A stretch of 64,000 nucleotides of DNA. It comes from Dendrobates tinctorius. Lineage: Eukaryota. Each line of letters opens with the position of its first letter. Position 1 is the first letter of the stretch. The DNA lies in NCBI RefSeq assembly GCF_039654945.1, contig NW_027361898.1:11284001-11348000 (forward strand). The letters are read 5' to 3'. Positions 19,897-64,000 of this stretch are shown here, in pieces. The translations under genes and the position numbers were made by a program. The notes below the pieces were generated by a model. That model was not told the DNA's origin, did no database searches, and saw nothing but the letters and a program-made list of their open reading frames with translations.

Positions 19897-20484
19897 CTAG
19901 CTGCTGGCCCGACTCTAAAGCATCGGGTACTCTAGAATATGGCCACCGGCAGATTAAAATAAAAAATGTGATATACTTACCATCCGACGGCCCCCGGAAT
20001 CTGTCCCTCCTCTCCACGCTGCCGGCATCTTCCGTTCCCAGTACTGCTTTGCGCCAAAGACCGCTGCTGACATCCTCTTGCGAGAGCGTGACGTCATCAG
20101 CGGTATTTCGCGCAAAGCAGTACTGGGAACGGAAGATGCCGGCAGCGTGGAGAGGAGGGACAGATTCCGGGGGCCGTCGGAAGGTGAGTAGATCACTATT
20201 TTTTAAATTAATTCTATTTATTACACGTTTAAGGTACCGAGGGTCCGAAGGAGTCTCTTCTCCTCCGGGCAATTCCGGCTGCGTCGCCGCTGACGCCCGT
20301 GTGCCCGGAGATGACCCGTGGCACGGTAGTGGTGGCGTGCATCCTGCTAATTGCGGACTGCACTTGCGCGCTGCGCCTGTTGCAGATTGGTTGCGGCCTG
20401 GCGGGGGCCTGGCGGCTGCGACCAGTCAGCGCAGTGGGATTTCGGTTACAGACAGACATGATAAGGCGTTTATATATATATAGA
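19897..20484 (-). mobile_element. Non-autonomous Helitron with internal palindrome
   Basis: Minus strand starts TCTATATA and ends with hairpin CCCGATGCTTTAGAGTCGGG plus CCAGCAG-CTAG|T. No TSD. The 5' flank is T rather than the usual A. Confidence 0.75.
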
Positions 20485-22656
20485 AGAGCATTCCTAGAAA
20501 TGCTTGGTTCAGTAAATGATGCGGTGTAAATGCAATTTCAAGGTTCAATTACATTGTGCAATATACAGCATTAAACAACCACCGTCTGGCAACATGTCTG
20601 CTGGTCGGTGGTCATTTCATTGCCTTTTTACTTAGGTCAACCTTGCTTCTGATGTGCACAGAATGATCGGTAATAAACTCTTGTGTGCACATAGGCTGCC
20701 ATTGTTCTTAACAGCAGGTCCTGTTTGTAGGGGAAGATGCTATGCCGAGGCGATGGTCGTCTGTGCAATACAAAAGATCATTTCACCTGACGAATGAACA
20801 TCTTGTTCGTCCGGTGATCAGTAATTTGTTTATATGAAACAATCTCCTTTTGTAAGAGCATCCCAGGAGCAAGGGTTCACGTTAGCGGTGCAGTGTAAAT
20901 GGACCTCACATCAGAGCATCACCCTGGATTTGGGAATTAATTCTTTTCCTTACTGCTCCACTATTCTGTTTTCAAACTCTAATACAGCACTTGGCTCTAG
21001 AAAAGTACATGGCATGATATGGACCTCATCAGCCATGCAGCGTGAATGGGTTATATGCATCTAGTTTTAAAGCATCTCAAACAGTGAAATAATCTGACTT
21101 GGAAGGGAAAATAAAGAGATAATGCAGACCCATAGAAGAAAGCCTTGTAAAAGCACTCAGCAAGTTATCTACTGCTCTACGACATATGTTGTAAGTTTGC
21201 TAATGCAATATATGTGTATTTAGCAGCTTCTCACATATACACCAAGATGCCTCAGAGAAATCCCGTGGAATGTGCAGCACAAACTGATCCCTATAGAAAA
21301 CAGTGCTAATTTGATCCTAAAGTAAAGGGGGCGATACACAGCTGTCGTGAAAGAAATGCACTGTGGTGGCCATTTTTAGAGGATGAAGTACATGACAGAA
21401 TTTTAGACCTTACAATAATATTAGTTCAAGATTCTTAACCCTTTCTTTGCAATAAGGGCAGTTTACGTCCAGGCAGGCGAGTTAGAAATAATAATAATAA
21501 TAATAATGATAATAATAATAATGTAAGAACAACAGGATTCTGACTACTGAATTACATTTGTACAACACATTTATATTTTGAGAAAAACTAAGCTTGAGGC
21601 TAATAGAAAGTTTTTAGCAATAGCATGACTGTTGTATTAGTACTAGACAGTAACATAGTTTATTGCAATGTGGTAATCGTCCACAATTTGATTTCTACCT
21701 GTGACATATATTTGGCGTTAGAAGTTGCCCAACTGTATAACGAGTTACCACCTTCTCAGTTTTAGTGTTTTTTTGCTGTGTACATTGTCATTAGTGAGCA
21801 CTGCAGCAGTTTATTTGATATATTGCCAAAATGCTACCCATCTCACCACAATGTGGGTACGGATTTCTCAGCATATTCCATTCACTAGACTCCATGACGC
21901 GATCTTCAAAGCTGATTTATATATCAAAATATCAACATCGTCCTTTATTAAAGAGGAGAGAAAGAATAAATGAGAGTATAGGGTAGGAAAAATATATAGA
22001 GAGGGATAGAAATTAACAGGTAGGGAATGAGGGAAGAAAAACGAAAAGTGGGATAGATTATCATAAGCAATTTTAATCTTGGCATTTTTATATTGTTTTC
22101 TTATTTCTTATATATTTTTTATTATACAATATAACTCGAAACATTTTAAGTAAACAACAATAACTTCTTATACCAAGCTTGTCTGATTTTCATAGTGAAT
22201 TGATGCCTTTTTGTTTCGTGTGGTTATGGTATTGCTGAGTGTTATTTTTGGGGATTTGGTTGTGAAGTTGTTTTAGATTGGGGAAATGTTTTGAGCCACA
22301 ATTGCTTCTATTACTATTATTATAGGCAGCGAAACTGTTATTTCTGAGTGCGAAAATGTGTTCATAAATGTTGTGTATTTATTTTTCCAATACCTTTCCT
22401 TATTGTCGGTGTTTCTGCTTGTCTCCAGATGGGGGCTGGGGAGGGCACAGCCTGAGAGGAAGCCCCCCATGACTGCAATGGGCGGGCAGGTTTTTCAAAA
22501 TTGTTTGGGCTTCGGGTGTCCTGAATGGCTGGGTCTGGGTCAAGGGAGATGTTCTGGGCGTGGACGCCCTGGGGGTAGTGGTAGAAAGTGCGGGAAAAAC
22601 TGCATTCGGGTCAGAGAAGCAGAGAACCGAAGAGCCCACCTGATCACAGAAGAAGT

Positions 22657-24617
22657 ATGGAGATCGTGGATGCGCTTATGTCCAGGCTCCAGGACGTGGC
22701 CCGGTCCAGGAGGGGGGGATGGCTCCAGTCTCAGCTGTCCTCTCTCCTCCGGTCTGTGGATACGCCCGGAATTAGCCAGCGTGGCAGGAGGACGAGGCCC
22801 CCTGAGAGGTTGTCACCGGAGGTCACAGCGCGCAGCAGGCGACGGCTACGGAGCCCCTCTGGCACAAGCTCCGGGGCAGCTTCCCCCCTCAGAGCCCGTC
22901 CCGGCAGGAATCCGCCCAGCTGACTTGCGAGTGCAGGAAGAAGGAGAGCGGGAGTCGCGCCGGAACAGCAGGCCAGCCAGGAAGTGAGGACGTCGCGGGT
23001 GGGAGCCGAAGTATCGCGGGACGGAGCGGCGCCAGGCAGGTCCCCAGGCACAGGAGCGGTCCGCGGCAGGCCTGCATCACAGCGGCGAGCAGGCAGAGGC
23101 TATGTCAGCGAGGACGGCATCAGCAGGCAAGGCAGCGGGCGCTACGGGGGAGGTCCGCACTGGGGGGCCTGCCGGACAGAGTGCCAGACAGAGCGGCGCA
23201 ATGGGCAGGCGGGGGCATTATGATGACGTCCTGCCGTACCCCAGCACTGATTACAGGTCGGGGAGAGCGGCGGGCATCAACGGACAGCTGTCTGGCAGTC
23301 GGCTGGAGTCTGATACGGACCGGACAGGCCGGTCCGGGTCTGGGGATCGACACAGGTCCCGCTCAGGCCGGAGATCCACGGAGCACCAGGAGTCACATGC
23401 ACAGGTTCCCCCTGGTGATGAGGAGGCCGGGGGCGTGGGCCGGGAGCAGCACAGAGGGTCTGACGGTACTGGCTCTGGCAGTGAACGGCAGGATCGGGGA
23501 AGACGGCAGGATTCTGGACAGTCGGCTGGCGGGGACACAGCACCCGCGCAGCTATGTGAGTATGGCTCTATGTCGTGTCTGTCGCCCGCAGGGGCAGTAT
23601 TGCAGGATGTTGGGGGTATTTTAGGGGGTAGTAGGGAGCAGAGGGGGTGTAGCGGGCATAGCGGGGCTGAAGTGCCTGGGCTGAGAGATATTTTGAATAA
23701 TATGTCAAACATTTTAAGGAGACTCGAGGGGGGGGTAATTGGGGAGGCAGCCCAATCTCCGGTGGGGGCATGGTTAGTGGGTCGAGGATCTGGCACTCAG
23801 GCAGAAGGAGAGGTGTTACGCCCAGTCGAGTGCGACGGAAGGGCATCAGCGGGGGTATCGGTTTTGGTGCAAATGGAGACGGACAAGGGTGACAAGATAA
23901 AACTGGACGATAGGGCTAAGGGAGAGGTTTATGTGTGTTTTGAGGGGCCTTTGGGTGCCCATTTAAAGAAGGAAGTGAAGGAAAAGATCTGACGGGACGA
24001 GTATGTCGAGATATTCTCCCTCCTTCCGTTGGAGAAATTTAACTTGGATAAGAGGAAAAAAAGACGATAGTAAAAAAGAGGAGGAAAAAAAGAGGAGGTG
24101 GCGGTTGATTCCACAGACGTTTGTCAATTGGATGCAGGTATTCGCTATGTTGGCGAGTGTCACTCATAGGCGAAAAGTTTCCGGAAAATTGTTCTGGCCT
24201 ATTTTGCTATTTAGATGCTATTGGGGAGGCGCATCGTATTTACGGGGGTCAGGCGTGGTTACGATACGATGAGCAGTTTAGACAGAGGAAGGCGGTGCGG
24301 CCAGAGATAAAATGGGATCAGAAGGATATCGGGTTGTGGCTGAAGGTGATGGCTCCAGTGACGTATGGGCAGTCCTTTCACGGGAGCGGGGGGCAGTGGC
24401 AGCCAGCAGGCAGGACATGGAAGTGGTGGTCAGGGAGGAAAGGAGAAGTCTGGAACGTGTTGGCAATTTAATGACGGCCAGTGTTAGTACGCAAACAGCT
24501 GTAAGTTCAAGCACGTGTGCTCCCACTGCAATGGTACCTCTCACGGGGTGGCAAAATGTTTCAAAAAGGGGAAGGGTAAGCCACACGTGGGTACTGGTCA
24601 AGGGGGAGAGCCCAGTG
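22657..24617 (+). pseudogene. Ngaro ORF1/Gag-like protein (stops and frameshifts)
   Basis: MEIVDALMSRL..., PLGAHLKKEVKEKI*RDEYVEIFSLL, AWLRYDEQFRQR, C-terminal CWQFNDGQC...CKFKHVCSHC...H...C zinc fingers. Stops at 22921 and 23990. Confidence 0.8.
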
Positions 24618-26200
24618 AGAATTCAAGAGATGGCCCCCTTTCTAAATAGGTACCTGGATCGGGTGGAGGCCGATGTTGTTTGGAAAGGTTTTGTTGAGGG
24701 CTTCAGGATTCCCCCTCCAAGCCATGTGGTTCCTTTCTTGGTTAAAAATTTGCGGTCGGCAACGATGCATGGGGAGGTAGTGGATGCGAAGTTAAAAAAG
24801 GAAGTGGAACTGGGCAGGATGGCTGGTCCGTTCCCCACTGCGCCAGTAGCGGGTTTGATTGTTTCCCCTTTGGGGGTAGTGCCAAAAAAGGAACCGAACA
24901 AGTTTTGTTTGATCCAGCATTTATCATACCTGAACGGTTTGTCAGTTAACGATGGGATTGATAAAGAGCTGTGTTCGGTGGAGTATACCTCGTTCGATAC
25001 GGCTGTGCATTGGGTGCGGCGTTATGGTTTTGGGGCTCTGTTAGCAAAGACCGACATTGAATCGGCCTTTCGTTTATTGCCGGTTCACGCGGAGAGTATC
25101 CCGCTGTTGGGTTGTTTTTGGAATGGGGATTTTTACCTCGATAGGTGTTTGCTGATGGGTTGTTCAATTTCTTGTTCACTTTTCGAGATGTTTAGCACTT
25201 TTTTGGAATGGGTGGTGAAGGATGTTGCAGGTGTGCAATCGATCATTTATTACCTGGATGATTTTCTTTTTATCGGTCCCCCCGGATTCATCATTGTGTA
25301 GGAATGCGTTAGCAGCCATGGTTTGGGTGGCAGAGCGTTTTGGGGTGCCTTTGGCGACGGAAAAGACGGAAGGCTCTAAGACCGTTATAAGTTTTTTGGG
25401 CATAGTAATTGATTCGGAAAAGATGGAGTGTCGCTTACCAGAGGACAAATTGTCATTGTTGAAGCATGAGGTAGAGAGGATCGCGAGGTTGCGGAAGGTG
25501 ACGTTAAAGGAGTTGCAATCTTTATTGGGGAGATTGAACTTCGCTTGTAGGATTATGCCCATGGGTCGCATTTTTTCCCGTCGTCTGGCATGCGTGACAG
25601 CTGGAGTGAAGGCTCCGCACCATTATGTTCAATTCACTAAGGAACATAGGGAGGATTTGATGGTTTGGCAGCGTTTTTTACGGAATTACAACGGTCAGTC
25701 GTTGATGCAGGAGGAGACTTTGAGCGATTTTGACTTTGAGATCTATACAGATGCAGCAGGCAGCTCTGGTTACGGCGCCTACTGTAAGGGGAAGTAGAGT
25801 GTGGGGCAATGGCCACAGGAATGGAAGTCTTTGGGCCTTACCAAAAACTTGGCGTTGTTGGAATTGTTTCCTATTGTCGTAGCTGTCTCGATTTGGGGTT
25901 CTATGTTCGCGAATCGGAGGGTGCGATTTCATTGTGACAACGCGAGCGTAGTGGCGGTGATTAACAGTTTGTCGGCCTCATCCCCCCCCCCTGTGATTAG
26001 GTTGGTTAGGGTTTTGGTTCTACTGTGTCTGGAGTTGAATGCGGGGATTTCTGCAGTACATGTGCCCGGGGTTACAAACTCAATAGCAGATTCTTTGTCT
26101 CGTTTTCAGTGGGGGCGCTTTCGAGAGTTGGTGCCAGAAGCGGATGCCTTGGGCGTGGAATGCCCTTCTTATCTGTGGCTAGTGATTACGGAAGAGCGGG
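24600..26200 (+). pseudogene. Ngaro reverse transcriptase / RNase H
   Basis: SPLGVVPKK, KTDIESAFRLLPV, MGCSISC, YLDDFL. RNase H motifs YTDAAG, LLELFPI, HCDNASVV, HVPGVTNSIADSLSR. Frameshift near 25280, stop at 25795. Confidence 0.93.
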
Positions 26201-27070
26201 AAGATTCATCCAGGAATCGGTATTGCACCAGACCTGGTCGGCTTATGAATCCTCGTGGTGAGTATGGCAGAGTTGGGTGTCCGAATGGGGCGGAGTTAAC
26301 GGCGAGGAGGAGAGAATGTTAGCAGTATTGCTTTTAATTGGAAAAGCGGCTGATAGTGGTTGGTCTGCGGCCAAGGTGAACAAATTTGTAGTGGGTCTGG
26401 CTTTTGGTTTTAAATTACAGGGTGTGACGGACGTGACAAAACAATTTTTGGTTAGACAGGCGTTGCGAGGTTTTCGCAGGGGTAATAAAACTCATGACAA
26501 ACGGAGGCCTATTTCGTTCAGTACATTGGAAGCCTTGGGCAGGGTCTTGGAGGGTATTTGTACTTCAGGGTTTGAGCTGACATTGTTTAGGTTAGCTTTT
26601 TCTTTGGCCTTTTTTGGGGCAATGCGCATCGGTGAGGTAGTGTCAAGTAGCAGGGTCATGGCCAGAGGTTTGTTGGCAGAAGATGTGGAATTTTGGGCGG
26701 GGGGCATTGTTTTTTGGATTAGGCGCTCCAAAACCGATCAACTGTGTAGAGGCAGGAGGGTAGTGTTGGGGCGAGTTGATGGGACAGTAATGTGCCCTCA
26801 GAAGTGTATGGAGTTGTATTGGTAAGGGTGGTCAGGTGGGAGGGTCCTTTGCTGTGCCATGCGGATGGTACGTATTTGTCTAGTTTTGACTTCATTGCGG
26901 TCTTGAAGAAGGGATTGTTGGAGCTTGGCCTTCCCCCGGATATATATGGGTCCCATTCCTTTAGTATAGGGGCAGCATCCGAGGCTGACAGTCTTGGTCT
27001 GCTGGCTGAGGTGATCAGGAGAATTGGCAGGTGGAGGTCGGATCGTTATTTATTGTATGTTCGGCATTAA
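26180..27070 (+). pseudogene. Ngaro tyrosine recombinase
   Basis: AFFGAMRIGE, IRRSKTDQ, HSFSIGAAS (HxxR arginine changed to S), GRWRSDRYLLYVR. Frameshift near 26820. Confidence 0.92.
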
Positions 27071-27126
27071 TAGTCGTTATTGAATGCTGAGGTATTTGTT
27101 TTCCATACTTTGTTATATTTTTTCAG

Positions 27127-27721
27127 GTGGCGACCCCTTTCTGGCCTGGATATTTGGACACTCGTACGTGTACTGGGGTGCGCTACGAGCTGATGCAAGG
27201 CTGGATGGTAGGCAATTGGGCTTTAAGAGGGAGCAAGTGGTGATCCGTTGGTTGGGTTTTCGAGGCATGGTGTGGAGCAGGGTGCTCTCTGAAGTAGCCA
27301 AGTCCGCTCACCTTGATAGACCTCCCGACGTTCTGGTCATACATGTGGGTGGTAACGATTTAGGGGTTAAGCCGGTGAGGGAATTGATTAGGGACATACG
27401 TTCCGATTTTTTGAGATTGTGGATGTCTTTCCGGACGTCTTGACTGTGTGGTCAGATGTGGTACCCAGTCAGAAGTGGAGGCACGCAAGGTCGTTAAAAG
27501 GGATTAATAGGGCTAGGGTAAAATTGAATCGGGCAGTGTCGGGATTTGTATCTAGGAATGGGGGTATTAGTGTTAGGCATTTTGAGCTGGAATCGGGTGT
27601 CGGTAATTATTGGTTGGCCGACGGGGTTCATTTGAATTCTATTGGGATTGATTTGTGGGCATTGGCAATACAGGAGGAGATAGAGAGGGCCTTGGTGGCT
27701 TTGGGGCACTCTCGAGCCTGA
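27127..27721 (+). pseudogene. Ngaro SGNH/GDSL-family hydrolase domain
   Basis: Blocks IFGHSYV, LGFRG, VIHVGGNDLG, DGVHLN. One frameshift near 27430. Preceded by a splice-acceptor-like TTTTTTCAG. Confidence 0.88.
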
Positions 27722-29429
27722 GGTTGTCAGCGCTGTTCGTTGTTGGCGGGGGGTACGGTTCTTGGAGTTGACGATGATTGGTCAGGGAAGGATTTGGAAG
27801 AAAAATTCCCGGCAGTTTTCAAATGGTATGGGGGATCTGGCTTTTTGGTTATGGGCTCTGGACGGGGTTTTTACCTCGGGAGCTCTGGTGGTTAGTCTCC
27901 CGGGAGTTACGGTGCCCTCAAGCTGGGGATGGACGGCTGAGGGTAACATGGAGGTTTTAGCCAGATCTTTTAGCTCCAAGAACCCTCCCCTCATATTTTG
28001 CATTATGATTGCATATTAATGCTTATTGTTAAATGTTATTGTTTGTTAATAAACTTGGCCGCTGTGGCCAAATTATCCAAAGAATTCAAGTATTGGCATG
28101 TGTTATTGTGGGAATGGGGGTCTCGGAGGGGGGTCGGGTAGGTATTGGATAATGGTAAAAGGGGAAAAAACTGGACTCGCCATATGCGGTCAAGATGGGG
28201 GCTGGGGAGGGCACAGCCTGAGAAGAAGCCCGCCCCATGACTGCAATGGGCGGGCAGGTTTTTCAAAATTGTTTGGGCTTCGGGTGTCCTGAATGGCTGG
28301 TTCTGGGTCAAGGGAGGAGTTATGGGCGTGGACGCCCTGGGGGTAGTGGGAGAAAGTGCGGGAAAATCTGCATTCGGGTCAGAGAAGCAGAGAACCGAAG
28401 ACCCACCCTCCCTCCCAGTTATGCAGTAATACGGGGCAGGAGGTGATAAGGGTTATTAAAAAAAAAAAGAAAAAAAGAATGTGCTGAAGAGATTTATGTG
28501 GATCGTTTGCTGTTTTCTGTCGTCACAGTGGCTAGTGGGGCGGGGGTAGGATTTGGAAGAAAAATTCCCCGCAGTTTTCAAATGGTATGGGGGATCTGGC
28601 TTTTTGGTTATGGGCTCTGGACGGGGTTTTTACCTCGGGAGCTCTGGTGGTTAGTCTCCCGTAACGGGAGTTACTGTGCCCTCGAGCTGGGGATGGACGG
28701 CTGAGGGTAACATGGAGGTTTTAGCCAGATCTTTTAGCTCCAAGAACCCTCCCCTCATATTTTGCATTATGATTGCATATTAATGTTATTGTTTGTTAAT
28801 AAACTTGGCCGCTGTGGCCAAATTATACAAAGAATTCAAGTATTGGCGTGTGTTATTGTGGGAATGGGGATCTCGGAGGGGGGCCGGGTAGGTATTGGAT
28901 AATGGTAAAAGGGGAAAAAACTGGACTCGCCATATGAGGTCAAGTGCTCTGCTCTAATCATTTCTGTGACTAGGATGAAGTGAAATGTAATGGGTCTTAC
29001 TTTTAGCGGAATATTTTTAGAGCGCAGTGAAAGTAATGCAAGTTGTGGAGTCGGGTGTAAATTTATGAATTCTCTACTTCTTCTCATGGTGGTCTGATCT
29101 TTGGGCAGTTCCGAAAGCTGTGTATTCGATTACCATTTTAATTCCTTATTTTTTGTTCTTGAATAATGCCACTGTTCCTAATTTACCTAAGTTTTATCGT
29201 AGGTAAAATGCAAACACAAGATGACAGACCTCATTGAATAATGTGCTCAAACTTTCCTCGCTACCGTGACGCTACCACTCCTCAAGATATACTGTACATC
29301 AAGCTTTTAGTGTTTGAAGACACAGAAAGAATACTGTAATTTGCTTCATGGGGTGAGGAAACAACAGAATACAACACACAAAAAAAATCTCTTGAAATTG
29401 CAGTTAGAGATCTGGGCACCTAGACATAA

Positions 29430-30530: not shown

Positions 30531-30720
30531 AGGGCGCTGTCAGATGTATGACACAGCGACGATCTAATTGCAATGCTTGGACTGGCCAGCGGCTCTACTG
30601 ACCCGAGCCTGACAGCATGTATTTCTATGCAGCTGTCAGGGCTGGGTCAGGAGAGACGCCGGCCAGTCCGAGGATTGCAATTAGATCATCGTCCGTGTTA
30701 TACGGTCATCTGACTTTGCT
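30531..30720. mobile_element. Palindromic Harbinger-type MITE
   Basis: Inverted arms around ATGTATTTCTATGCA. Related copy at about 45222-45417. Confidence 0.7.
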
Positions 30721-32392: not shown

Positions 32393-32692
32393 TATTTTTT
32401 TTTAAAGACAAAGCGAAATTTCCTCATTACTGTAAACTTCTGTCCACTTCATAGATTATGTAATTTTTGCACACTTCCTTTCAATATTAGAACTGTACAC
32501 TCAAATACAGCTGCTGGTTACCATACATTTACATCTGCTTGGCCCTACTCAGATAAGTGGGGATCACATGGACATTAATAAGGCTGTTTGCTTTATAGAC
32601 CTCAAAAGGGGGTTCAATCCACCCCTGGGAGAGCTCAGGGTGTTATATAAGGGATTTCTGGGCAATTAGAGGCTTTGCAGTAATGAGAGTCA

Positions 32693-32888
32693 GGCCGGAG
32701 TCACACTACAGCGAGATACGGCCGAGTCTCGCAGGTTAAAACCAAGCTCTGGCGCCGGCACTCCGGAGCGGAGCATGCAGCCGCACAGCAATACATGAAG
32801 CTGCATGCTGAGCTCCGGAGTGCCGGTGCCAGAGGTTGGTTTTAACCTGCGAGACTCGGCCGTATCTCGCTGTAGTGTGACTCCCGCC
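32693..32888. mobile_element. Palindromic Harbinger-type MITE
   Basis: 3-bp TSD TCA, TIR GGCCGGAGTCACACT, near-perfect arms of about 90 bp. Confidence 0.88.
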
Positions 32889-33267
32889 TCACTGTGAGAT
32901 TGTTAGCTGAAAATCAATTGCTTTTGAACATTCAGCGAAGCTGGAAATTCTTATTTATTATTGTTATTATTATTTTCCTTGCTTATATATTGCCATTAAT
33001 TAAGCAGCACTTTACAGACATCATCATCACTGTTGTTGAATCTCATAGCATTACTAAAGAATTCTGTCAATGAACGTGGGATTTATTCTTGAGTCATGCT
33101 AAAATTGGAAGAAAAATGTATTTATGTGATGATATTCTACTTTCGCTGTATTACTGCATAAAGCCAAACCCATCTGCCCTTTACTTATAATAGCTATTGC
33201 GAAAATAATTGGTTTAGGCTGTGACATTGAGAGACATCTCATCTTGTGGAGAGAGAGATGTAGAGAC

Positions 33268-55431: not shown

Positions 55432-57660
55432 CTATGTGTCATCAGGGGAAGGTGGGACAAAATCCTTTGAAACCCATGCAAGGTTCATTTTAATGAAGGT
55501 TAGATCATCCACATTTTGGGTTGACAGATGGGTCCTTTTTTCTGTCAGGATTGATCCAGCAGCACTGAAGACTCTTTCGGATAACACACTAGCAGCAGAG
55601 CAAGCGAGCTCCTGTACGGCATATTGTTCCAATTCAGGCCAGGTGTCCAGTTTAGAGGCCCAATAGTCAAAGGGGAATGACCTTTGAGGGAGAACATCAA
55701 TATGGGAGGAAAAGTCGTTTGTAACCATAGTTGACAACTGCTGTCTCCTGTCACTTTTAATCGATGCAGTGTTAGCAGTCGTGTGAGCGGTACTTAAGAA
55801 ATCATTCCACAACATGGTCATTAAACCCCTGTCTCCAATGCCACTTCAGCTGTGTGCACCACGAACACCTCTTCCATTGTGCCCACTATGGCTCATGGGA
55901 GAACCATCACCGCTGCTGTGTGCTTGGAAAGCCTCAAACAAATGGTTTACCAGAGTTGCTTGTTTGTTAGCCAATATTATCTCTAGGTTCTCCTGTGGCA
56001 TGATGTTGTGTAATTTGCTTTTGTAGCGTGGATCGAGGATGCTGGCCAGCCAGTAGTCGTCATCCCTCATCATTTTAGCAATGCGGGGGTCCATTTTTAG
56101 GATCTGCAAAGCATAATGTCCCAGGTGTCATTAATGCACTGCCACTGCTGGGTGGAGGAGCACTTTCTGGCAAATCCACATCCCTACAGTCACGCAAAAA
56201 TACTGTACTTGACCTTGGAACGCCAACATTTTCTCTTGCCCCCTGAGAAGCATCCTCCTGCCCAAAATATTCATCCCCCTCATCCTCCTCCTCCTCCTCT
56301 TCCTCTTCTTCCTCCACCTTGTCCAGGACAGTTCCCTGACTAGACAATGGCTCACTGTCATCAAGGCTTCCCTCCTCCTCCTCCTCTGCTGCAGACGCCT
56401 GTTCCTTAATGTGCATCACACTTTGCATAAGCAGATGCATAAGTGGGATGCTCATGCTTATGATGGCGTCGTCTGCGCTTACCAGCCACGTGCATTCCTC
56501 AAAACATTGAAGGACTTTACAGAGGTCTTTCAGCTTTGACCACTGCACACCCGACAATTCCATGTCTTCCCTCAAACTGCCTCCCACAAATGCACTACAG
56601 CCTGCCTCTGTTTGCACAGCCTCTCAACCATGTGCAGGGTGGAGTTCCACCTTGTTGCAACGTCTATTATTAGGCGGTGCTTGGGGAGGTGGAGCAATCG
56701 CTGCAGTGGAGTGGACGTTTGAGCGACGGATGTGCGAGCACAGTCTTCACACCTTATGGAGCAGGGATGTTAACTCCAGATAATTATTAAAGAAGCACCA
56801 GGTTCAAAGTGTGAGCCAGGCAAGGTATGTGTGTGAGTTTTGCATGGGCTATGGCTGCCACAAAATTACGGCCGTTATCACTGACTACCTTGCCTGTCTC
56901 AAGATGTAGACTGCCCAGCCATGACTCAGTTTGTCACTGCAAGTAGTCGGCCAGTACCTCCACGGTCTGTCTGTTGTTGCCCAAAGACATCATCTTTAAC
57001 ACAGCCTGCTGACGCTTACCACTAGCTGTTTGAAAGTGGAACACCTCGTGTGCAACACTGCCAGCTGCGGATGCAGTGCTCGTGTGACTGCGCTCTGTGG
57101 ATGAGATTTCACTGATGGAGGAGGAAAAGGAGGGTCGAAAGCCTACAGCCAACTGTTTCCTATACCGTGGGCTAGGCAGCACTATTCAACCACCGCTGTC
57201 CCCTCTGGAGCCTGCATCCACCACATTAACCCAGTGCGCAGTGATGGACATGTAACGGCCCTGGCCATGCCTACTTGTCCATGCATCTGTTGTGAGGTGC
57301 AACTTTCCACTCACTGACTGTTTTAGTGCATGGACAATGCGGACTTTCACATGCCGATGTAGGGGAGGGATGGCTTTTCGAGAAAAGAAGTGCCGACTGG
57401 GTAGGTCATAGCGTGGGACAGCGTAGGCCATGAGCTCGCGGAAAGCTTCGCTTTCAACCAAACGGTAGAGCATCATCTATAATGGGATTAGTTTGGCAAT
57501 GTAGGCGTTCAAGCACAGTGTACGTGGATGAGAGGATGAGTACTTTCTTGTCCTATTCAGAGTGTTTGGTAGGGTGAGCTGGACTGGAGAGCTGCATATG
57601 GGGGAAGTAGCGGTGGACCGGACGGAGTGAGAGGCGGTTGGTGATGGTATTAATGGTGAT
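55432..57660 (-). pseudogene. Decayed hAT (Ac/ZBED4-like) transposase, central and C-terminal part
   Basis: HLTTDAWTSRHGQGRY, ILDPRYK, YWASKLDTWPEL...AASVLSERVFSAAG; multiple frameshifts. Confidence 0.92.
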
Positions 57661-58043: not shown

Positions 58044-58452
58044 AAAAAAACTGCTTCTGCTGCTAGCGATTTGGCCTGCACAACACACCAGTCACTGTGT
58101 GTGCAGTGCAAGGGGAGGCTATATAGTGGTGTATCAGTGGTGTTGGTTGTTGGGCTGCCTTTTAAGGCTTCCTGACAGGCTGGCATTGCTGTTTACCCAC
58201 TGCTCTGCAAACTGCTTTTTTAAAAGCAATCCCAATTTTTTTTTTTTGTCCTGCTGAGAAGGAAAAAAAACAGCTTCTGCAGCTAGCAATTTGGCCTGCA
58301 CAACACACCAGTCACTGTGTGTGCAGTGCAAGGGGAGGCTATATAGTGGTGTATCAGTGGTGTTGGTTGTTGGGCTGCCTTCTAAGGCTTCCTGACAGGC
58401 TGGCATTGCTGTTTACCAACTGCTCCGCAAACTGCTTTTTTAAAAGCAATCC
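58044..58452. repeat. Two-copy 220-bp tandem duplication
   Basis: GCTTCTGC...TTTTTAAAAGCAATCC at 58053 and 58273. Confidence 0.9.
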
Positions 58453-60524
58453 AATCTCCCTTATCCTCTAGTCACTTTTGTCACAGCTGTGCCATCGAGC
58501 CTGTCACATAGCGCTCAGATATCAGTGGGCCTCACACAATCCAAAAGTGTCCAGTGTCCAAAAGTGTGTGCAGATATTCAAAATCTCCCTTATCCTCTAG
58601 TCACTTTTGTCACAGCAGTGCCATCGAGCCTGTCACATAGCGCTCAGATATCAGTGGGCCTCACACAATCCAAAAGTGTCCAGTGTCCAAAAGTGTGTGC
58701 AGATATTCAAAATCTCCCTTATCCTCTAGTCACTTTTGTCACAGCAGTGCCATCGAGCCTGTCACATAGCGCTCAGATATCAGTGGGCCTCACACAATCC
58801 AAAAGTGTCCAGTGTCCAAAAGTGTGTGCAGATATTCAAAATCTCCCTTATCCTCTAGTCACTTTTGTCACAGCAGTGCCATCGAGCCTGTCACATAGCG
58901 CTCAGATATCAGTGGGCCTCACACAATCCAAAAGTGTCCACTGTCCACAAGTGTGTGCAGAAATTCAAAATCTCCCTTATCCTCTAGTCACTTTTGTCAC
59001 AGCTGTGCCATCGAGCCTGTCACATAGCGCTCAGATATCAGTGGGCCTCACACAATCCAAAAGTGTCCACTGTCCACAAGTGTGTGCAGAAATTCAAAAT
59101 CTCCCTTATCCTCTAGTCACTTTTGTCACAGCAGTGCCATCGAGCCTGTCACATAGCGCTCAGATATCAGTGGGCCTCACACAATCCAAAAGTGTCCACT
59201 GTCCACAAGTGTGTGCAGAAATTCAAAATCTCCCTTATCCTCTAGTCACTTTTGTCACAGCTGTGCCATCGAGCCTGTCACATAGCGCTCAGATATCAGT
59301 GGGCCTCACACAATCCAAAAGTGTCCACTGTCCACAAGTGTGTGCAGAAATTCAAAATCTCCCTTATCCTCTAGTCAGTTTTGTCACAGCAGTGCCATCG
59401 AGCCTGTCACATAGCGCTCAGATATCAGTGGGCCTCACACAATCCAAAAGTGTCCAGTGTCCAAAAGTGTGTGCAGATATTCAAAATCTCCCTTATCCTC
59501 TAGTCACTTTTGTCACAGCAGTGCCATCGAGCCTGTCACATAACGCTCAGATATCAGTGGGCCTCACACAATCCAAAAGTGTCCACTGTCCACAAGTGTG
59601 TGCAGATATTCAAAATCTCCCTTATCCTCTAGTCACTTTTGTCACAGCAGTGCCATCGAGCCTGTCACATAGCGCTCAGATATCAGTGGGCCTCACACAA
59701 TCCAAAAGTGTCCAGTGTCCAAAAGTGTGTGCAGATATTCAAAATCTCCCTTATCCTCTAGTCACTTTTGTCACAGCAGTGCCATCGAGCCTGTCACATA
59801 GCGCTCAGATATCAGTGGGCCTCACACAATCCAAAAGTGTCCACTGTCCACAAGTGTGTGCAGAAATTCAAAATCTCCCTTATCCTCTAGTCACTTTTGT
59901 CACAGCTGTGCCATCGAGCCTGTCACATAGCGCTCAGATATCAGTGGGCCTCACACAATCCAAAAGTGTCCACTGTCCACAAGTGTGTGCAGAAATTCAA
60001 AATCTCCCTTATCCTCTAGTCACTTTTGTCACAGCAGTGCCATCGAGCCTGTCACATAGCGCTCAGATATCAGTGGGCCTCACACAATCCAAAAGTGTCC
60101 AGTGTCCAAAAGTGTGTGCAGATATTCAAAATCTCCCTTATCCTCTAGTCACTTTTGTCACAGCAGTGCCATCGAGCCTGTCACATAGCGCTCAGATATC
60201 AGTGGGCCTCACACAATCCAAAAGTGTCCAGTGTCCAAAAGTGTGTGCAGATATTCAAAATCTCCCTTATCCTCTAGTCACTTTTGTCACAGCAGTGCCA
60301 TCGAGCCTGTCACATAGCGCTCAGATATCAGTGGGCCTCACACAATCCAAAAGTGTCCACTGTCCACAAGTGTGTGCAGAAATTCAAAATCTCCCTTATC
60401 CTCTAGTCACTTTTGTCACAGCTGTGCCATCGAGCCTGTCACATAGCGCTCAGATATCAGTGGGCCTCACACAATCCAAAAGTGTCCAGTGTCCAAAAGT
60501 GTGTGCAGAAATTCAAAATCTCCC
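58453..60524. repeat. 129-bp tandem repeat, 16 near-identical units
   Basis: AATCTCCC recurs from 58453 to 60517 (2064 bp = 16 x 129); translated unit is 43 aa. Confidence 0.97.
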
Positions 60525-60600
60525 CTGTCCTATAGACACCTTGTACCTTGTTTTACATTACTATATAGTTTGTTGGATTTTGTCTACATTTCTACCAAAA

Positions 60601-63600
60601 ATGAGAAAGGCTGGTGGAAGAGGCCGTGGAATTGGGCGGGGGTTGGCAGCTGGTAATGATGGTGTTGGTGGTGGATCTGATGGTAGTGGCAAGAGCAAAA
60701 TAGGACCGAATGCAGGAGGTGCTGACCCTGCGTCATCGTCTGGCTACATAAGGCCTCGAACGCTTAGTTTTCTAGGAGTTGGCAAACCGCTTTTAAAGCC
60801 AGAGCATCAGGAAAAAGTTTTGTCTTACATTGCTGACTCAGCCTCCAGACTATCGCCTCCTCTTCTTCAGTTGTAAAAAGTAAAAGCACTGAGTCGTCAT
60901 TGGAGGCTCATGTTCATGAACCACACCTTTCCTTGTGTCCTTCACCCCAACCAAGATTGAAGGATGACGCAGGCCATACTACTGATTACTCCATGGAGCT
61001 GTTTTCACATACCATGCCTGGATTATCAGGTCAAATGGTGAATTACCCAGGCCAAGATGAATCTGACATGGAGTGCACTGATGCACAGCCGCTGATGGAT
61101 GATTCTGCTGGTACATTCACTCAGAGCACTACATTGTCCTCGCAGTGTACAGAGCCAGATTCTGACCCTGATGAGACTCAGGTGACCCTTCCCGCACACT
61201 ATACCACCATACACGGTGACACAGAGGAAGGTGCACATGACATAGAAGAGGAGGTGATGGATGACCCAGTTGTTGACCCAGATTGGCATCCATTGGGGGA
61301 AGAGGGTGCTGCTTCCAATAGCTCAGATGAGGATCATCCACAACAGACATCGACATCGCAACAGCTGTTATCTGGCAGGCCCGGAGCACTCCAAAGACAG
61401 GTTCCAAACATCAAAAGAGTTGCTGGACAGCTTGTCCAGAGGGTCAAAAGATCACAGCGTGCAAGGCAGCAAAATGTCTGCCAAAGTAGGAAGAGTGCAG
61501 TGTGGCACTTTTTTGAACAAAATCCTCATGATCAGGCCAAGGTTATCTGTAAGAAGTGCGCAAAGACCTTTAGCCGAGGGAAAAATCTGAAAAATTTGAA
61601 TACCAGTTGCATGCTTAGACATTTAACCAGCATGCACTTGCAAGCGTGGACACAACACCAAACCTCAAGTGCCACATGTGCAACTGATCACAACGAAGGT
61701 AGTCAGTAACGCTACATTGTTTCCCCCACTGTAAGCCCACCGGTTAGCACAGCAGCAAATGTTGAGGTGTCGTTGCAAGACCACAGCAGTCAGGGACTCC
61801 CACTGTTATATCAACGAAAGACTGATTCTAGGCCATCAGAAAGAACACCAACTCCATCACCATCATCAACCCTCTCTCAGTCCGCCCTGTCCACCGCTAC
61901 TTCCACCATATGTAGCTCTCAAGTCCAGACACTATGAGTAGGTCAAGAAAGTACTCAGTCTCTCATCCGCGTACACTGGGTTTGAACGCCCACATTGCCA
62001 AACTAATCTTGTTTGAGATGATTCCCTTTCGGTTGGTGGAAAGCACAGCTTTCCGCGAACTCATGGCCTATGCAGTACCACGCTATGACCTACCCAGTCG
62101 CCACTTCTTCTGTCGCAAAGCCATCCCAGCCCTCCACCATCATGTGAAAGACCGCATTGTCCATGCACTCAAGCAGTCAGTGAGCGGAAAGGTGCACCTC
62201 ACAACTGATGCATGGTCCAGTCGGCATGGCCAGGGCCGTTACGTGGCCATCACTGCGCACTGGGTTAATGTGGTGGATGCAGGGTCCACAGGGGACAGCG
62301 GTGGTGGGACAGTGCTGCCTAGCCCACGGTATAGGAAACAGTTGGCTGTAGGTGTTCGACCCTCCTCCTCCTCCTCCAGAAGCGAAAGCTCGTCCACAGA
62401 GCGCAGTCGTACGAGCACTCCATCTGCAGCTGCCACTGTTGCACACGATGTGTCCCCCTATCGAGCAGCTAGTGGAAAGCGTCAGCAGGCTGTGTTGCAG
62501 ATGATGTGTTTGGGCGACAGACACACCGCCGAGGTGCTGGCCGAGTACTTGAAGCGACAAACTGAGTCATGGCTGGGCAGTGTACATCTTGAGGCAGGCG
62601 AGGTAGTTAGTGATAACGGCCGTAATTTTGTGGCAGCCATAGCCCTTTCAAAACTCAGCCACATACCTTGCTTGGCTCACACCTTGAACCTGGTGGTGCA
62701 GTGCTTCCTCAAAAATTATCCGGAGTTAACAGCCCTGCTCCAGAAGGTGCGAAGACTGTGCGCGCACATCCGCCGGTCGCCTGTACACTCCATTCGTATG
62801 CAGAAGCTGCAGCGATTGCTCCACCTTCCCAACCACCGCCTCATTATCGACATTGCAACAAGGTGGAACTGCACCCTGCACATGGTGGAGTGGCTGTGCG
62901 AGCAGAGGCAGGCCATAATGCATTTGTGGGAGGACACACGGCCAGGCACTTTGAGAGCAGACATGGAGTTGACAGGTGTGCAGTGGTCGAAGCTGAAAGA
63001 CCTTTGTAAAGTCCTTCAGTGTTTTGAGGAATGCACACGGCTGGTAAGCGCAGACGACGCCATCCTAAGCATGAGCATCCCACTTATGCGTCTGCTCATG
63101 CAAACTTTGACGCACCTTAAGGAGCAGGCGTCTGCAGCCAATGTTGATGAGGAGGAAGAGGAGGAGGGAATCCTTGATGACATTCAGCCATTGTCTGCTC
63201 AGGGACCTCTCCTGGACGAGGTGGAGGAAGAAGAGGAGGAGGAGGAGGATGATGGGGATGATTACTTAGGGGAGGAGGATGCATCTCGTGGGGCAAGTGA
63301 AAATGTTGGCGTGGCAAGGTCTGGTACAGGGTTTGTGCGTGACTGGAGGGATGTGGATTTGCCAGAAAGTGCTCCTCCACCCAGCACTCGCAGTGCATCA
63401 TTGACACCGGGAACATTGGCCCACATGTCAGATTATGCCTTGCGGATCCTAAAAAGGGACCCCCGCATTGCCAAAATGATGAACGATGACGACTACTGTT
63501 TGGCCAGCATCCTGGATCCACGCTATAAAGGCAAATTACAAAACATCATGCCACAGGAGAACCTTGACCTAATATTGGCTAATAAACAAGCAACTCTGGT

Positions 63601-64000
63601 AAATCGGTTGCTTGAGGCATTCCCAGCACACAGCAGCGGTGATGGTTCTCACACGAGCCGTACGGGCCGGGGGCAGCTTGGCAGAGGTGTTCGTGGTGCA
63701 CACAGCAGAAGTGGCGTTGGAGACAGGGGTTTCATGACAATGTTGTGGACTGATTTTTCAAATACCGCTCACACAACTGGTAATACTGCATCGATGGAAA
63801 GTGACAGGAGACAGCAGTTGTCAACTATGGTAACAAACTACTTTTCCTCCCATATCGATGTTCTCCCACACAGGTCATTCCCCTTTGACTATTGGGCCGC
63901 TAAACTGGACACCTGGCCTGAATTGGCCCAATATGCCTTACAGGAGCTCGCTTGCCCAGCTGCAAGTGTGCTATCGGAAAGAGTCTTCAGTGCAGCTGGA
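60601..64000 (+). pseudogene. BED-finger hAT transposase (frameshift about 60850, stop 61707, 13-bp deletion about 61929; 61934-64000 open for 689 codons)
   Basis: BED finger SAVWHFF..VICKKC..MLRHLTSMH; TTDAWS, VSDNGRN, CLAHTLNLVV, TRWN, LDPRYK, PAASVLSERVFSAAG. Confidence 0.93.

What the first reader, a model, noticed from the sequence alone, without database searches (positions are those of the whole stretch)
23556..27126. Phase-matched intron in the Ngaro element would fuse the Gag N-terminus to the SGNH hydrolase
Seen: a donor CTAT|GTGAGT at 23555/23556, at the end of the low-complexity G/R/S-rich part of ORF1 (phase 1). An acceptor with GCTGAG, a T-rich tract and TTTTTTCAG|GT lies at 27126/27127, just ahead of the hydrolase block I (also phase 1). 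Splicing gives ...DTAPAQL-C-GDPFLAWIFGHSYV in frame and removes the Gag core, RT, RNase H and YR. The only nearby ATG for the hydrolase lies in the intron-like tract. Established: some Ngaro elements carry an SGNH hydrolase ORF. Inference: it is expressed from a spliced subgenomic mRNA (analogous to retroviral env) as a second ORF1 isoform, a two-isoform system that could place an esterase or lipid-binding module in the particle. I am not aware of this being described but cannot check the literature. This copy is mutated upstream, so the claim concerns the family.
Basis: partly seen in the sequence, partly recalled or inferred. Interest (0 to 1): 0.75.

Follow-up and report, generated by a model that had tools for sequence, protein, structure and literature searches.

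The report
Frog retrotransposon splices Gag onto enzymes
This decayed frog jumping gene belongs to a family that, judging by public gene models of its relatives, likely splices the front part of its structural protein onto either its lipid-type esterase or its recombinase, which would explain how these two start-less genes get made.

Summary
The sites are as described: phase-1 donor 23555/23556, phase-1 acceptor 27126/27127, in a decayed Ngaro element. The motifs alone are near chance; relatives decide it.

Ten of 29 longer SGNH homologs, and 36 of 150 top 50%-identity representatives, begin with the Ngaro ORF1 N-terminus and lack the Gag core. Named ones are mostly RefSeq models from frogs. 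In the closest families they join after the same TAPxQx motif, and unspliced ORF1s read Q-x-G-E-x there, which fits G|GTGAG.

Single Bufo loci carry ORF1N-YR, ORF1N-mini-exon-SGNH and ORF1N-SGNH isoforms sharing an identical first 298 residues. So one donor likely serves both enzymes, where a review proposed frameshifting for YR.

ORF1N-SGNH has the layout of the ZfL2-1 ORF1p (dimerising helix, Arg-rich stretch, esterase). No junction read was seen; the available runs did not cover the sites. I found no description in ten open-access searches.

The parts
22424..22641 (+). Split direct repeat A1
   Evidence: 95% identical to A2
22657..22920 (+). ORF1 N-terminus: ATG 22657, helical segment, Arg-rich RPPxRLSP region; in-frame stop at 22921 in this copy
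   Evidence: predicted homodimer for the first 42 residues read from 22654
22988..23555 (+). Low-complexity G/R/S-rich ORF1 linker, 3' part of the shared first exon
23556..23561 (+). Phase-1 splice donor GTGAGT; the codon reads Cys here where most relatives read Gly
23876..24634 (+). Gag-like core and CCCH finger of ORF1, broken; skipped by both introns
   Evidence: tblastn with P0073 and P0090; Pfam zf-CCCH in relatives
24630..26190 (+). RT and RNase H, broken; end coordinate approximate
26090..26109 (+).
   Evidence: matches the junction of Bufo ORF1N-YR models
26110..26190 (+). 27-codon leader of the YR exon, a cassette exon in relatives; GA rather than GT follows it in this copy
26191..27070 (+). 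Tyrosine recombinase, with stops at 26259 and 26823 and a frame break
27086..27126 (+). Branch-point-like GCTGAG, T-rich tract and phase-1 acceptor for the SGNH exon
27127..27721 (+). SGNH hydrolase exon: GHS 27156, GFRG 27255, GGND 27348, DGVH 27620; frame break near 27431
27785..28194 (+). Split direct repeat B1, AATAAA at 28048
28190..28409 (+). Split direct repeat A2
28544..28944 (+). Split direct repeat B2, AATAAA at 28798

Best explanation
This is a decayed copy of a frog Ngaro retrotransposon whose family likely uses one phase-1 splice donor inside ORF1 (23555/23556) with two alternative acceptors, 26109/26110 and 27126/27127, so that the recombinase and the SGNH esterase are predicted to be made as fusions behind the ORF1 N-terminus. 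Unspliced RNA would give full ORF1 and serve as the genome. The 2554-nt splice gives ORF1N-YR. The 3571-nt splice gives ORF1N-SGNH. In several families a further donor after a 27-40-codon leader gives ORF1N-mini-exon-SGNH. Shown here: the sites and phases, the matching gene models in relatives, and the conserved codon signatures. Inferred: that the models rest on real junction reads; that the shared N-terminal helices and Arg-rich stretch let the enzyme fusions co-assemble with full ORF1 and RNA (about 0.45); that the esterase acts on lipids or membranes as proposed for ZfL2-1 (about 0.4). This copy itself is almost certainly non-functional.
For: (1) 10 of 29 longer SGNH homologs carry the ORF1 N-terminus and no Gag core (P0005-9, 12, 13, 14, 20, 29). 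They are RefSeq or NCBI models from Bufo bufo, B. gargarizans, Rhinoderma, Dendropsophus, Engystomops and Phyllobates. (2) An HMM built only from 11 Gag-core-bearing ORF1s plus the window hits 36 of the top 150 SGNH representatives at E<=1e-3, and 0 of 150 reversed; none of the 36 has the Gag core and 1 has YR. (3) Bufo, Engystomops, Dendropsophus and Rhinoderma models join after TAPxQx, although among 13 linkers only one cross-family pair aligns. (4) Unspliced ORF1s read Q-x-[G/S]-[E/K]-x 115-164 residues before the Gag core in 8 of the 9 non-Xenopus proteins with native sequence that far upstream; the window gives 130. P0245 reads TAPGQL-G-E-N. (5) Two Xenopus-type pairs of full ORF1 and fusion are 93-94% identical over the aligned N-part and part at G-T and G-N, which fits G|GTA. 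(6) Five genomic read-through ORFs and the window show [S/P]-[G/D] at positions -11/-10 before block I, which fits YCAG|G, while upstream Met positions scatter. (7) Same-locus Bufo isoforms share 220-326 residues with 0 mismatches in 9 of 9 pairs, then diverge into YR or SGNH. (8) The window SGNH falls in a starred 14-row clade (100/99) with these families. (9) The predicted N-terminal homodimer scores 0.41 against a best control of 0.02; runs agree in at least 87% of contacts, pLDDT at least 76. The mark was reached by 21 of 30 solved pairs and 0 of 23 single chains in microbes, and by 17 of 29 and 0 of 30 in eukaryotes.
Against: No junction read and no DNA of any relative was seen, so splice sites in relatives are read from protein translations. 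The fusion proteins are automated models; that multi-isoform RefSeq models need transcript support is recalled, not checked. No fusion among the proteins whose source I could see came from a Logan or ENA contig. Motifs in the window are near chance, the donor has T at -1, and the cassette donor is absent. Many other models join SGNH to host exons or to RT/YR pieces (P0002, 4, 10, 28, 58, 91), so the acceptor is promiscuous or some models are wrong. Several families have a Met just before the first YR helix (P0263, P0122, P0159, P0160, P0170), so YR could start on its own there. P0060 lacks the exact donor signature, and Xenopus ORF1s lack the Q-x-G-E form. Only 23 of the 36 fusions keep all three SGNH motifs by a strict pattern. 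Only 1 of 7 eukaryotic pairs without an older solved relative reached the complex mark, and my alignment was not used.
Confidence: 0.85

Rival explanations
1. The junctions are real but incidental: a strong SGNH acceptor captures any upstream donor, and the hydrolase and YR are actually translated by frameshifting, re-initiation or an internal start.
For: Models join SGNH to host exons and to RT/YR fragments. Cassette-donor position varies between families. A Met precedes the YR helix in several families. A review quoted in PMC13003380 proposes frameshifting for Ngaro YR.
Against: Donor codons are conserved inside an otherwise unalignable linker. All three junctions are phase 1 and in frame. 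The SGNH has no conserved Met. Bufo P0241 has no Met between its junction and the first YR helix. In the window the YR stop (27068-27070) lies upstream of the SGNH frame's only ATG and its acceptor tract.
Confidence: 0.08
2. The fusion proteins are annotation artefacts: gene predictors bridged stops and frameshifts in decayed copies and spread the model between species through protein alignments.
For: All fusions seen are automated models. Obvious chimeric models exist (P0002, P0004, P0027, P0058, P0091 from Ranitomeya). No junction read was seen here.
Against: Several isoforms per locus with identical first exons; the same junction motif in families whose linkers do not align; matching donor and acceptor codons in independently called genomic ORFs.
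Confidence: 0.04
3. ORF1N-SGNH proteins come from intron-less, internally deleted or domesticated genomic copies rather than from splicing of intact elements.
For: Some fusions look host-like: repeat expansions and altered catalytic motifs in P0115, P0108 and P0231, and a set with near-identical starts (P0009, P0102, P0214).
Against: The same Bufo loci also yield the YR isoform, so the internal sequence is present there. Deletion end points at GT/AG-type codons would themselves imply a spliced template.
Confidence: 0.03

Closest known systems
Amphibian Ngaro retrotransposons with an SGNH ORF (X. tropicalis DIRS-53_XT and DIRS-54_XT; PMC9210276)
   Same: Split direct repeats; gag-like, RT/RNase H, YR and a fourth SGNH ORF in the same order.
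   Different: That paper treats them as four overlapping ORFs, hydrolase 'with no proven function', and has 0 hits for 'splic' or 'intron' in its main text. Here YR and SGNH appear to be alternative 3' exons of ORF1.
Esterase-type ORF1p of CR1/L2, RTEX and Penelope elements (ZfL2-1 ORF1p, PDB 4C1B; PMC3905857)
   Same: Order of parts: self-associating N-terminal helix, Arg-rich motif, poorly conserved linker, C-terminal SGNH esterase. 4C1B is the best PDB match by sequence profile (E 2e-4).
   Different: There it is the only ORF1 product and is encoded contiguously. Here it would be a spliced side product of a Gag-like ORF1 in a tyrosine-recombinase element. By fold search 4C1B ranks 28th, behind bacterial GDSL lipases. 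The N-terminal helices were not shown to be homologous.
Spliced subgenomic RNAs of other retroelements (Ty1/Copia Gag, PMC5580714, listing only; retroviral and gypsy env, foamy-virus pol, recalled)
   Same: The full-length RNA keeps the intron and is the genome; splicing gives extra proteins.
   Different: Here one donor inside the gag-like ORF feeds two different enzyme exons, including the integration enzyme, each behind a shared exon of about 220-410 residues.

Membership tests
Ngaro retrotransposon (order DIRS) | Split direct repeats A1 ... B1 A2 B2 | tested here: met
   (A 95%; B 93-98%)
Ngaro retrotransposon (order DIRS) | gag-like, RT/RNase H and tyrosine recombinase ORFs in that order, YR overlapping the RNase H end | tested here: met
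   all broken in this copy; Pfam hits are below curated cut-offs
Ngaro retrotransposon (order DIRS) | No methyltransferase domain | tested here: inconclusive
   No Pfam MT hit in the 10 ORF pieces scanned, but Pfam was weak on all pieces
Ngaro retrotransposon (order DIRS) | RT phylogeny within the Ngaro clade | not tested
   Only an SGNH tree was built
SGNH/GDSL hydrolase | Blocks I, II, III, V with Ser, Gly, Asn, Asp-x-x-His | tested here: met
   GHS 27156, GFRG 27255, GGND 27348, DGVH 27620, across a frame break
SGNH/GDSL hydrolase | SGNH fold | tested here: met
   Model of relative P0001, pLDDT 94.6; Foldseek top hits are GDSL lipases, E about 1e-8, TM about 0.7
SGNH/GDSL hydrolase | Esterase activity | not testable with these tools
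   Needs an assay
Spliceosomal (U2-type) intron 23556-27126 | GT..AG ends, pyrimidine tract, phase match | tested here: met
   motif strength alone is near chance
Spliceosomal (U2-type) intron 23556-27126 | Sites conserved in relatives | tested here: met
   Indirect, from codons and gene models; no DNA of relatives seen
Spliceosomal (U2-type) intron 23556-27126 | Junction reads in RNA | tested here: inconclusive
   Three small guessed-RNA contig runs had no cover at either site
Esterase-type ORF1p (ZfL2-1 class) | N-terminal self-associating helix, Arg-rich motif, C-terminal SGNH | tested here: met
   Layout; dimer is predicted only
Esterase-type ORF1p (ZfL2-1 class) | Encoded as the contiguous ORF1 of a non-LTR or Penelope element | tested here: not met
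   The host element is a YR retrotransposon and the product needs splicing; it works like this class but is not a member

The most novel reading that the evidence does not exclude
Frog Ngaro elements build a family of proteins on one shared, self-associating, Arg-rich ORF1 first exon: full Gag, ORF1N-recombinase and ORF1N-esterase. The shared end would load both enzymes into the ribonucleoprotein particle, so the element would have rebuilt the ZfL2-1-type esterase ORF1p by splicing, and recombinase supply would be set by splicing rather than frameshifting. The same kind of SGNH exon appears to have been captured by host genes, notably a squamate-wide TSG101 isoform lacking the catalytic His.
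Probability: 0.4. Interest if true: 0.8.

Novelty: new variant of a known kind. Interest (0 to 1): 0.68.

Why it matters
How DIRS-order elements express their overlapping, start-poor YR and hydrolase ORFs is open. The review quoted in PMC13003380 guesses frameshifting for YR, and PMC9210276, PMC7192593 and PMC6681497 list the hydrolase without a known role. A shared-donor splicing plan answers both in a vertebrate group with model species and public RNA-seq, so it is directly testable. It changes which proteins should be assayed: fusions rather than bare ORFs. It ties the Ngaro esterase to the lipid-binding ORF1p class of non-LTR elements. It also explains many mis-named RefSeq frog genes ('IF-2-like', 'SRRM1-like', 'collagen-like') as transposon isoforms.

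Tried and rejected
No whole genome is held for this window, so copies in the same genome could not be compared.

No RNA holder was listed. The three guessed-RNA contig runs laid at 80% likeness gave 11 records, none over 23388-23963 or 26460-27611 and no intron-like joint. This is uninformative either way.

Motif enrichment against shuffles gave little. The ESM Atlas gave no usable hit for the ORF1 N-terminus.

An independent ATG for the hydrolase was rejected because upstream Met positions are not conserved. The env analogy was set aside: the product has no envelope features that I noticed and resembles the esterase ORF1p class.

How RT is expressed was not resolved. Its ATG (24630) overlaps the ORF1 end, no pyrimidine tract precedes it, and no ORF1N-RT model appeared among the 11 hits (lengths 287-916 only).

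The search of earlier findings by sequence, by place and by two word sets returned nothing.

Supplements of PMC9210276 (Tables S1 and S2, ORF coordinates and transcripts) could not be read and may bear on novelty. [quoted passage not shown]
Full report
**1. Observation.** The window holds one Ngaro-type element at about 22424-28944 on the + strand, with split direct repeats A1, B1, A2 and B2; no second copy is in the window. The copy is decayed: a stop at 22921 and a frame change before the donor, and breaks in Gag, RT, YR and SGNH. The motifs alone prove little. GTRAGT occurs 3 times against 3.5 expected. Acceptor-like sites occur 5 times against 2.2 (15 of 300 shuffles) at one cut-off, and neither real acceptor passes the stricter one.

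**2. The predicted fusion exists in public gene models.** A search for longer homologs of the SGNH N-half returned 29 proteins. Ten start with the Ngaro ORF1 N-terminus, continue through a low-complexity linker and end in SGNH, with no Gag core: P0005-P0009, P0012-P0014, P0020 and P0029 (P0012 judged by eye). They are NCBI models, with XP_ accessions for those looked up, from two Bufo species, Rhinoderma, Dendropsophus, Engystomops and Phyllobates. The other 19 are short read-through ORFs, N-terminally partial forms, or chimeric models with host, RT or YR parts. A profile search of 1.84 billion representatives found 2748 proteins at E<=0.001. An HMM built only from 11 Gag-core-bearing ORF1 N-termini plus the window hit 36 of the top 150, and 0 of 150 reversed; none of the 36 has the Gag core and one has YR. 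Of 20 representatives looked up, those among the 36 with a named organism are from Xenopus, Engystomops, Leptodactylus, Eleutherodactylus, Rhinoderma, Spea and Discoglossus. The window's SGNH half falls in a starred 14-row clade with the Bufo, Rhinoderma, Engystomops, Dendropsophus and Phyllobates proteins.

**3. The junction is the predicted one.** Bufo, Engystomops, Dendropsophus and Rhinoderma models leave ORF1 right after TAPxQx, the motif that ends at 23554 in the window. Among 13 linkers only one cross-family pair aligns at E<=1e-3, so copying models between species would not easily place it there. In unspliced ORF1 homologs (36 proteins), 9 non-Xenopus proteins have native sequence at least 115 residues upstream of the Gag core. 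Eight read Q-x-[G/S]-[E/K]-x at 115-164 residues (P0057, 62, 65, 73, 74, 78, 80, 90), the translation of a phase-1 GTRAG; P0060 has a variant. I left out proteins that were too short or had unrelated N-terminal exons, and the Xenopus proteins, which lack this form. The window reads Q-L-C-E-Y at 130. P0245 continues TAPGQL with G-E-N. Two Xenopus-type pairs of full ORF1 and fusion (P0081/P0124, P0079/P0126) are 93-94% identical over the aligned N-part and part at G-T and G-N, compatible with G|GTA. At the acceptor, 20 of 23 scorable proteins have a residue with a G-starting codon at -10 from the block I Gly. Five genomic read-through ORFs and the window show [S/P]-[G/D] at -11/-10 after an F/L/V/I-rich stretch, as expected of a T-rich tract ending YCAG, while upstream Met positions scatter or are absent.

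**4. A second acceptor gives the recombinase.** Bufo and Xenopus fusions come with and without an insert of 27-40 residues. Its counterpart in the window begins at 26110, after a second acceptor (TTTTCAG at 26109) inside the RNase H motif SLSRFQ|W and in the YR frame. A search with the Bufo ORF1 N-part returned P0241, a 619-aa ORF1N-YR model in a cluster of 16 (weak Phage_integrase hit). Single loci carry sets. LOC120984168 has X1 (619 aa, YR), X3 (523, cassette plus SGNH) and X4 (496, SGNH); LOC122929128, LOC122942287 and a second family at LOC122936402 show the same. In 9 of 9 pairs compared, the shared prefix of 220-326 residues has no mismatch. Spea P0133 also has ORF1N followed by YR. In the window GA, not GT, follows the 27-codon leader, so the cassette form is not predicted here. 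Against a strict need for splicing, several families have a Met just before the first YR helix.

**5. Mechanism.** Unspliced RNA would be the genome and the ORF1 message. One donor with two acceptors gives ORF1N-YR and ORF1N-SGNH; an optional second donor gives the cassette form. The shared exon carries two short helices, an Arg-rich RPPxRLSP region (18 Arg in 88 residues in the window) and a variable linker. ESMFold2 scored a homodimer of the first 42 residues at 0.41 against a best control of 0.02, with at least 87% of contacts shared and pLDDT at least 76. The mark was reached by 21 of 30 solved pairs and 0 of 23 single chains in microbes, by 17 of 29 and 0 of 30 in eukaryotes, but by only 1 of 7 eukaryotic pairs with no older relative. 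This supports self-association and does not show it. I infer that the shared end recruits both enzymes to the ORF1-RNA particle (about 0.45). The SGNH has all four blocks in the window and a confident SGNH fold in a relative; its best PDB sequence match is the ZfL2-1 ORF1p esterase 4C1B (E 2e-4). RT expression is unresolved.

**6. What is missing.** No RNA holder was listed, and the three small guessed-RNA contig runs did not cover either site. No DNA of relatives was available. The case therefore rests on automated gene models plus codon signatures. That RefSeq alternative isoforms need transcript alignments is my recollection of NCBI's pipeline. Reads from a multicopy family map to many loci, so the many loci are not independent. 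No fusion with a visible source came from raw contigs.

**7. Literature.** PMC9210276 (passages and section 8): SGNH ORF known, no proven function, no hit for splicing or intron; supplements unreadable. PMC13003380 (passages) quotes Poulter and Butler 2015 that Ngaro YR is probably made by ribosomal frameshifting. PMC3905857 (passages and section 13): coiled coil, Arg-rich motif and esterase in ZfL2-1; no mention of DIRS or Ngaro. Passages of PMC7192593, PMC6681497, PMC4157794, PMC8547959 and bioRxiv 2021.04.08.439009 showed no Ngaro splicing. PMC4495291: abstract only. PMC5580714: listing only. Ten searches listed no paper on this by title or abstract start; one search listed only 30 of 80 papers and 10 of 12. 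Subscription papers and Repbase reports were not searched. Unchecked AI notes from other genomes describe similar shared-donor or Gag-to-YR splicing in protist, diatom and fungal Ngaro elements. I saw them after finding the YR acceptor and count them as leads only.

**8. Verdict.** Observation confirmed; interpretation supported and extended from two isoforms to a shared-donor plan covering both YR and SGNH. Known element class, apparently undescribed expression plan, already implicit in RefSeq. Confidence at family level 0.85; this copy is not functional. Interest 0.68.

Noticed in passing
P0226, P0264-P0277: A TSG101 isoform of 408-409 aa in at least ten squamate genera (geckos, amphisbaenian, iguanians, anguimorph, snakes, skink) replaces the C-terminal half with an SGNH domain that scores E 9e-45 to the Ngaro profile. 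14 of the 15 listed members have [D/N]GVLL in place of DGVH (the 15th is a longer model whose end was not scored). It looks like a domesticated, catalytically altered retroelement exon on an ESCRT-I protein. In the tree it forms its own clade, so a Ngaro origin is not shown. A search for TSG101 with SGNH found one unrelated paper. Precedent for this route: LAP2alpha (PMC4495291, abstract).
   Followed up: partly
P0220; P0092, P0093, P0111, P0113, P0117, P0118, P0171, P0193: Other host-like proteins with this SGNH type: a newt RNF31 isoform ending in SGNH, and unnamed 1200-3100-aa proteins with 2-6 SGNH copies, one with cold-shock and PRY/SPRY domains.
   Followed up: no
P0009, P0102, P0214, P0115, P0108, P0231: ORF1N-SGNH proteins with repeat expansions or altered catalytic motifs, possibly host genes derived from the spliced form.
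   Followed up: no
P0223: A lungfish model joins a different, Cys-rich ORF1-like N-terminus to SGNH; the plan may extend beyond frogs. Its likeness to DIRS1 ORF1 is recalled, not tested.
   Followed up: no
P0087 vs P0088: Two X. laevis ORF1 models differ by about 15 codons right after the donor position, hinting at a short optional intron within ORF1 itself.
   Followed up: no
window 28509-28528: An acceptor-like tract between A2 and B2; a similar T-rich tract ending CACAG precedes the B-repeat match in contigs of all three runs.
   Followed up: no
window 24600-24650: The RT ATG (24630) overlaps the end of ORF1 and the RT frame is open upstream of it; how RT is translated is unexplained.
   Followed up: partly
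window 58444-64000 (+) and 56078-56623 (-): Long ORFs (810, 290, 695 aa; the first internally repetitive) that look like a DNA-transposon gene region by eye; not scanned.
   Followed up: no
window 19961-20203, 30557-30691, 32688-32893: Short near-perfect palindromes, MITE-like.
   Followed up: no
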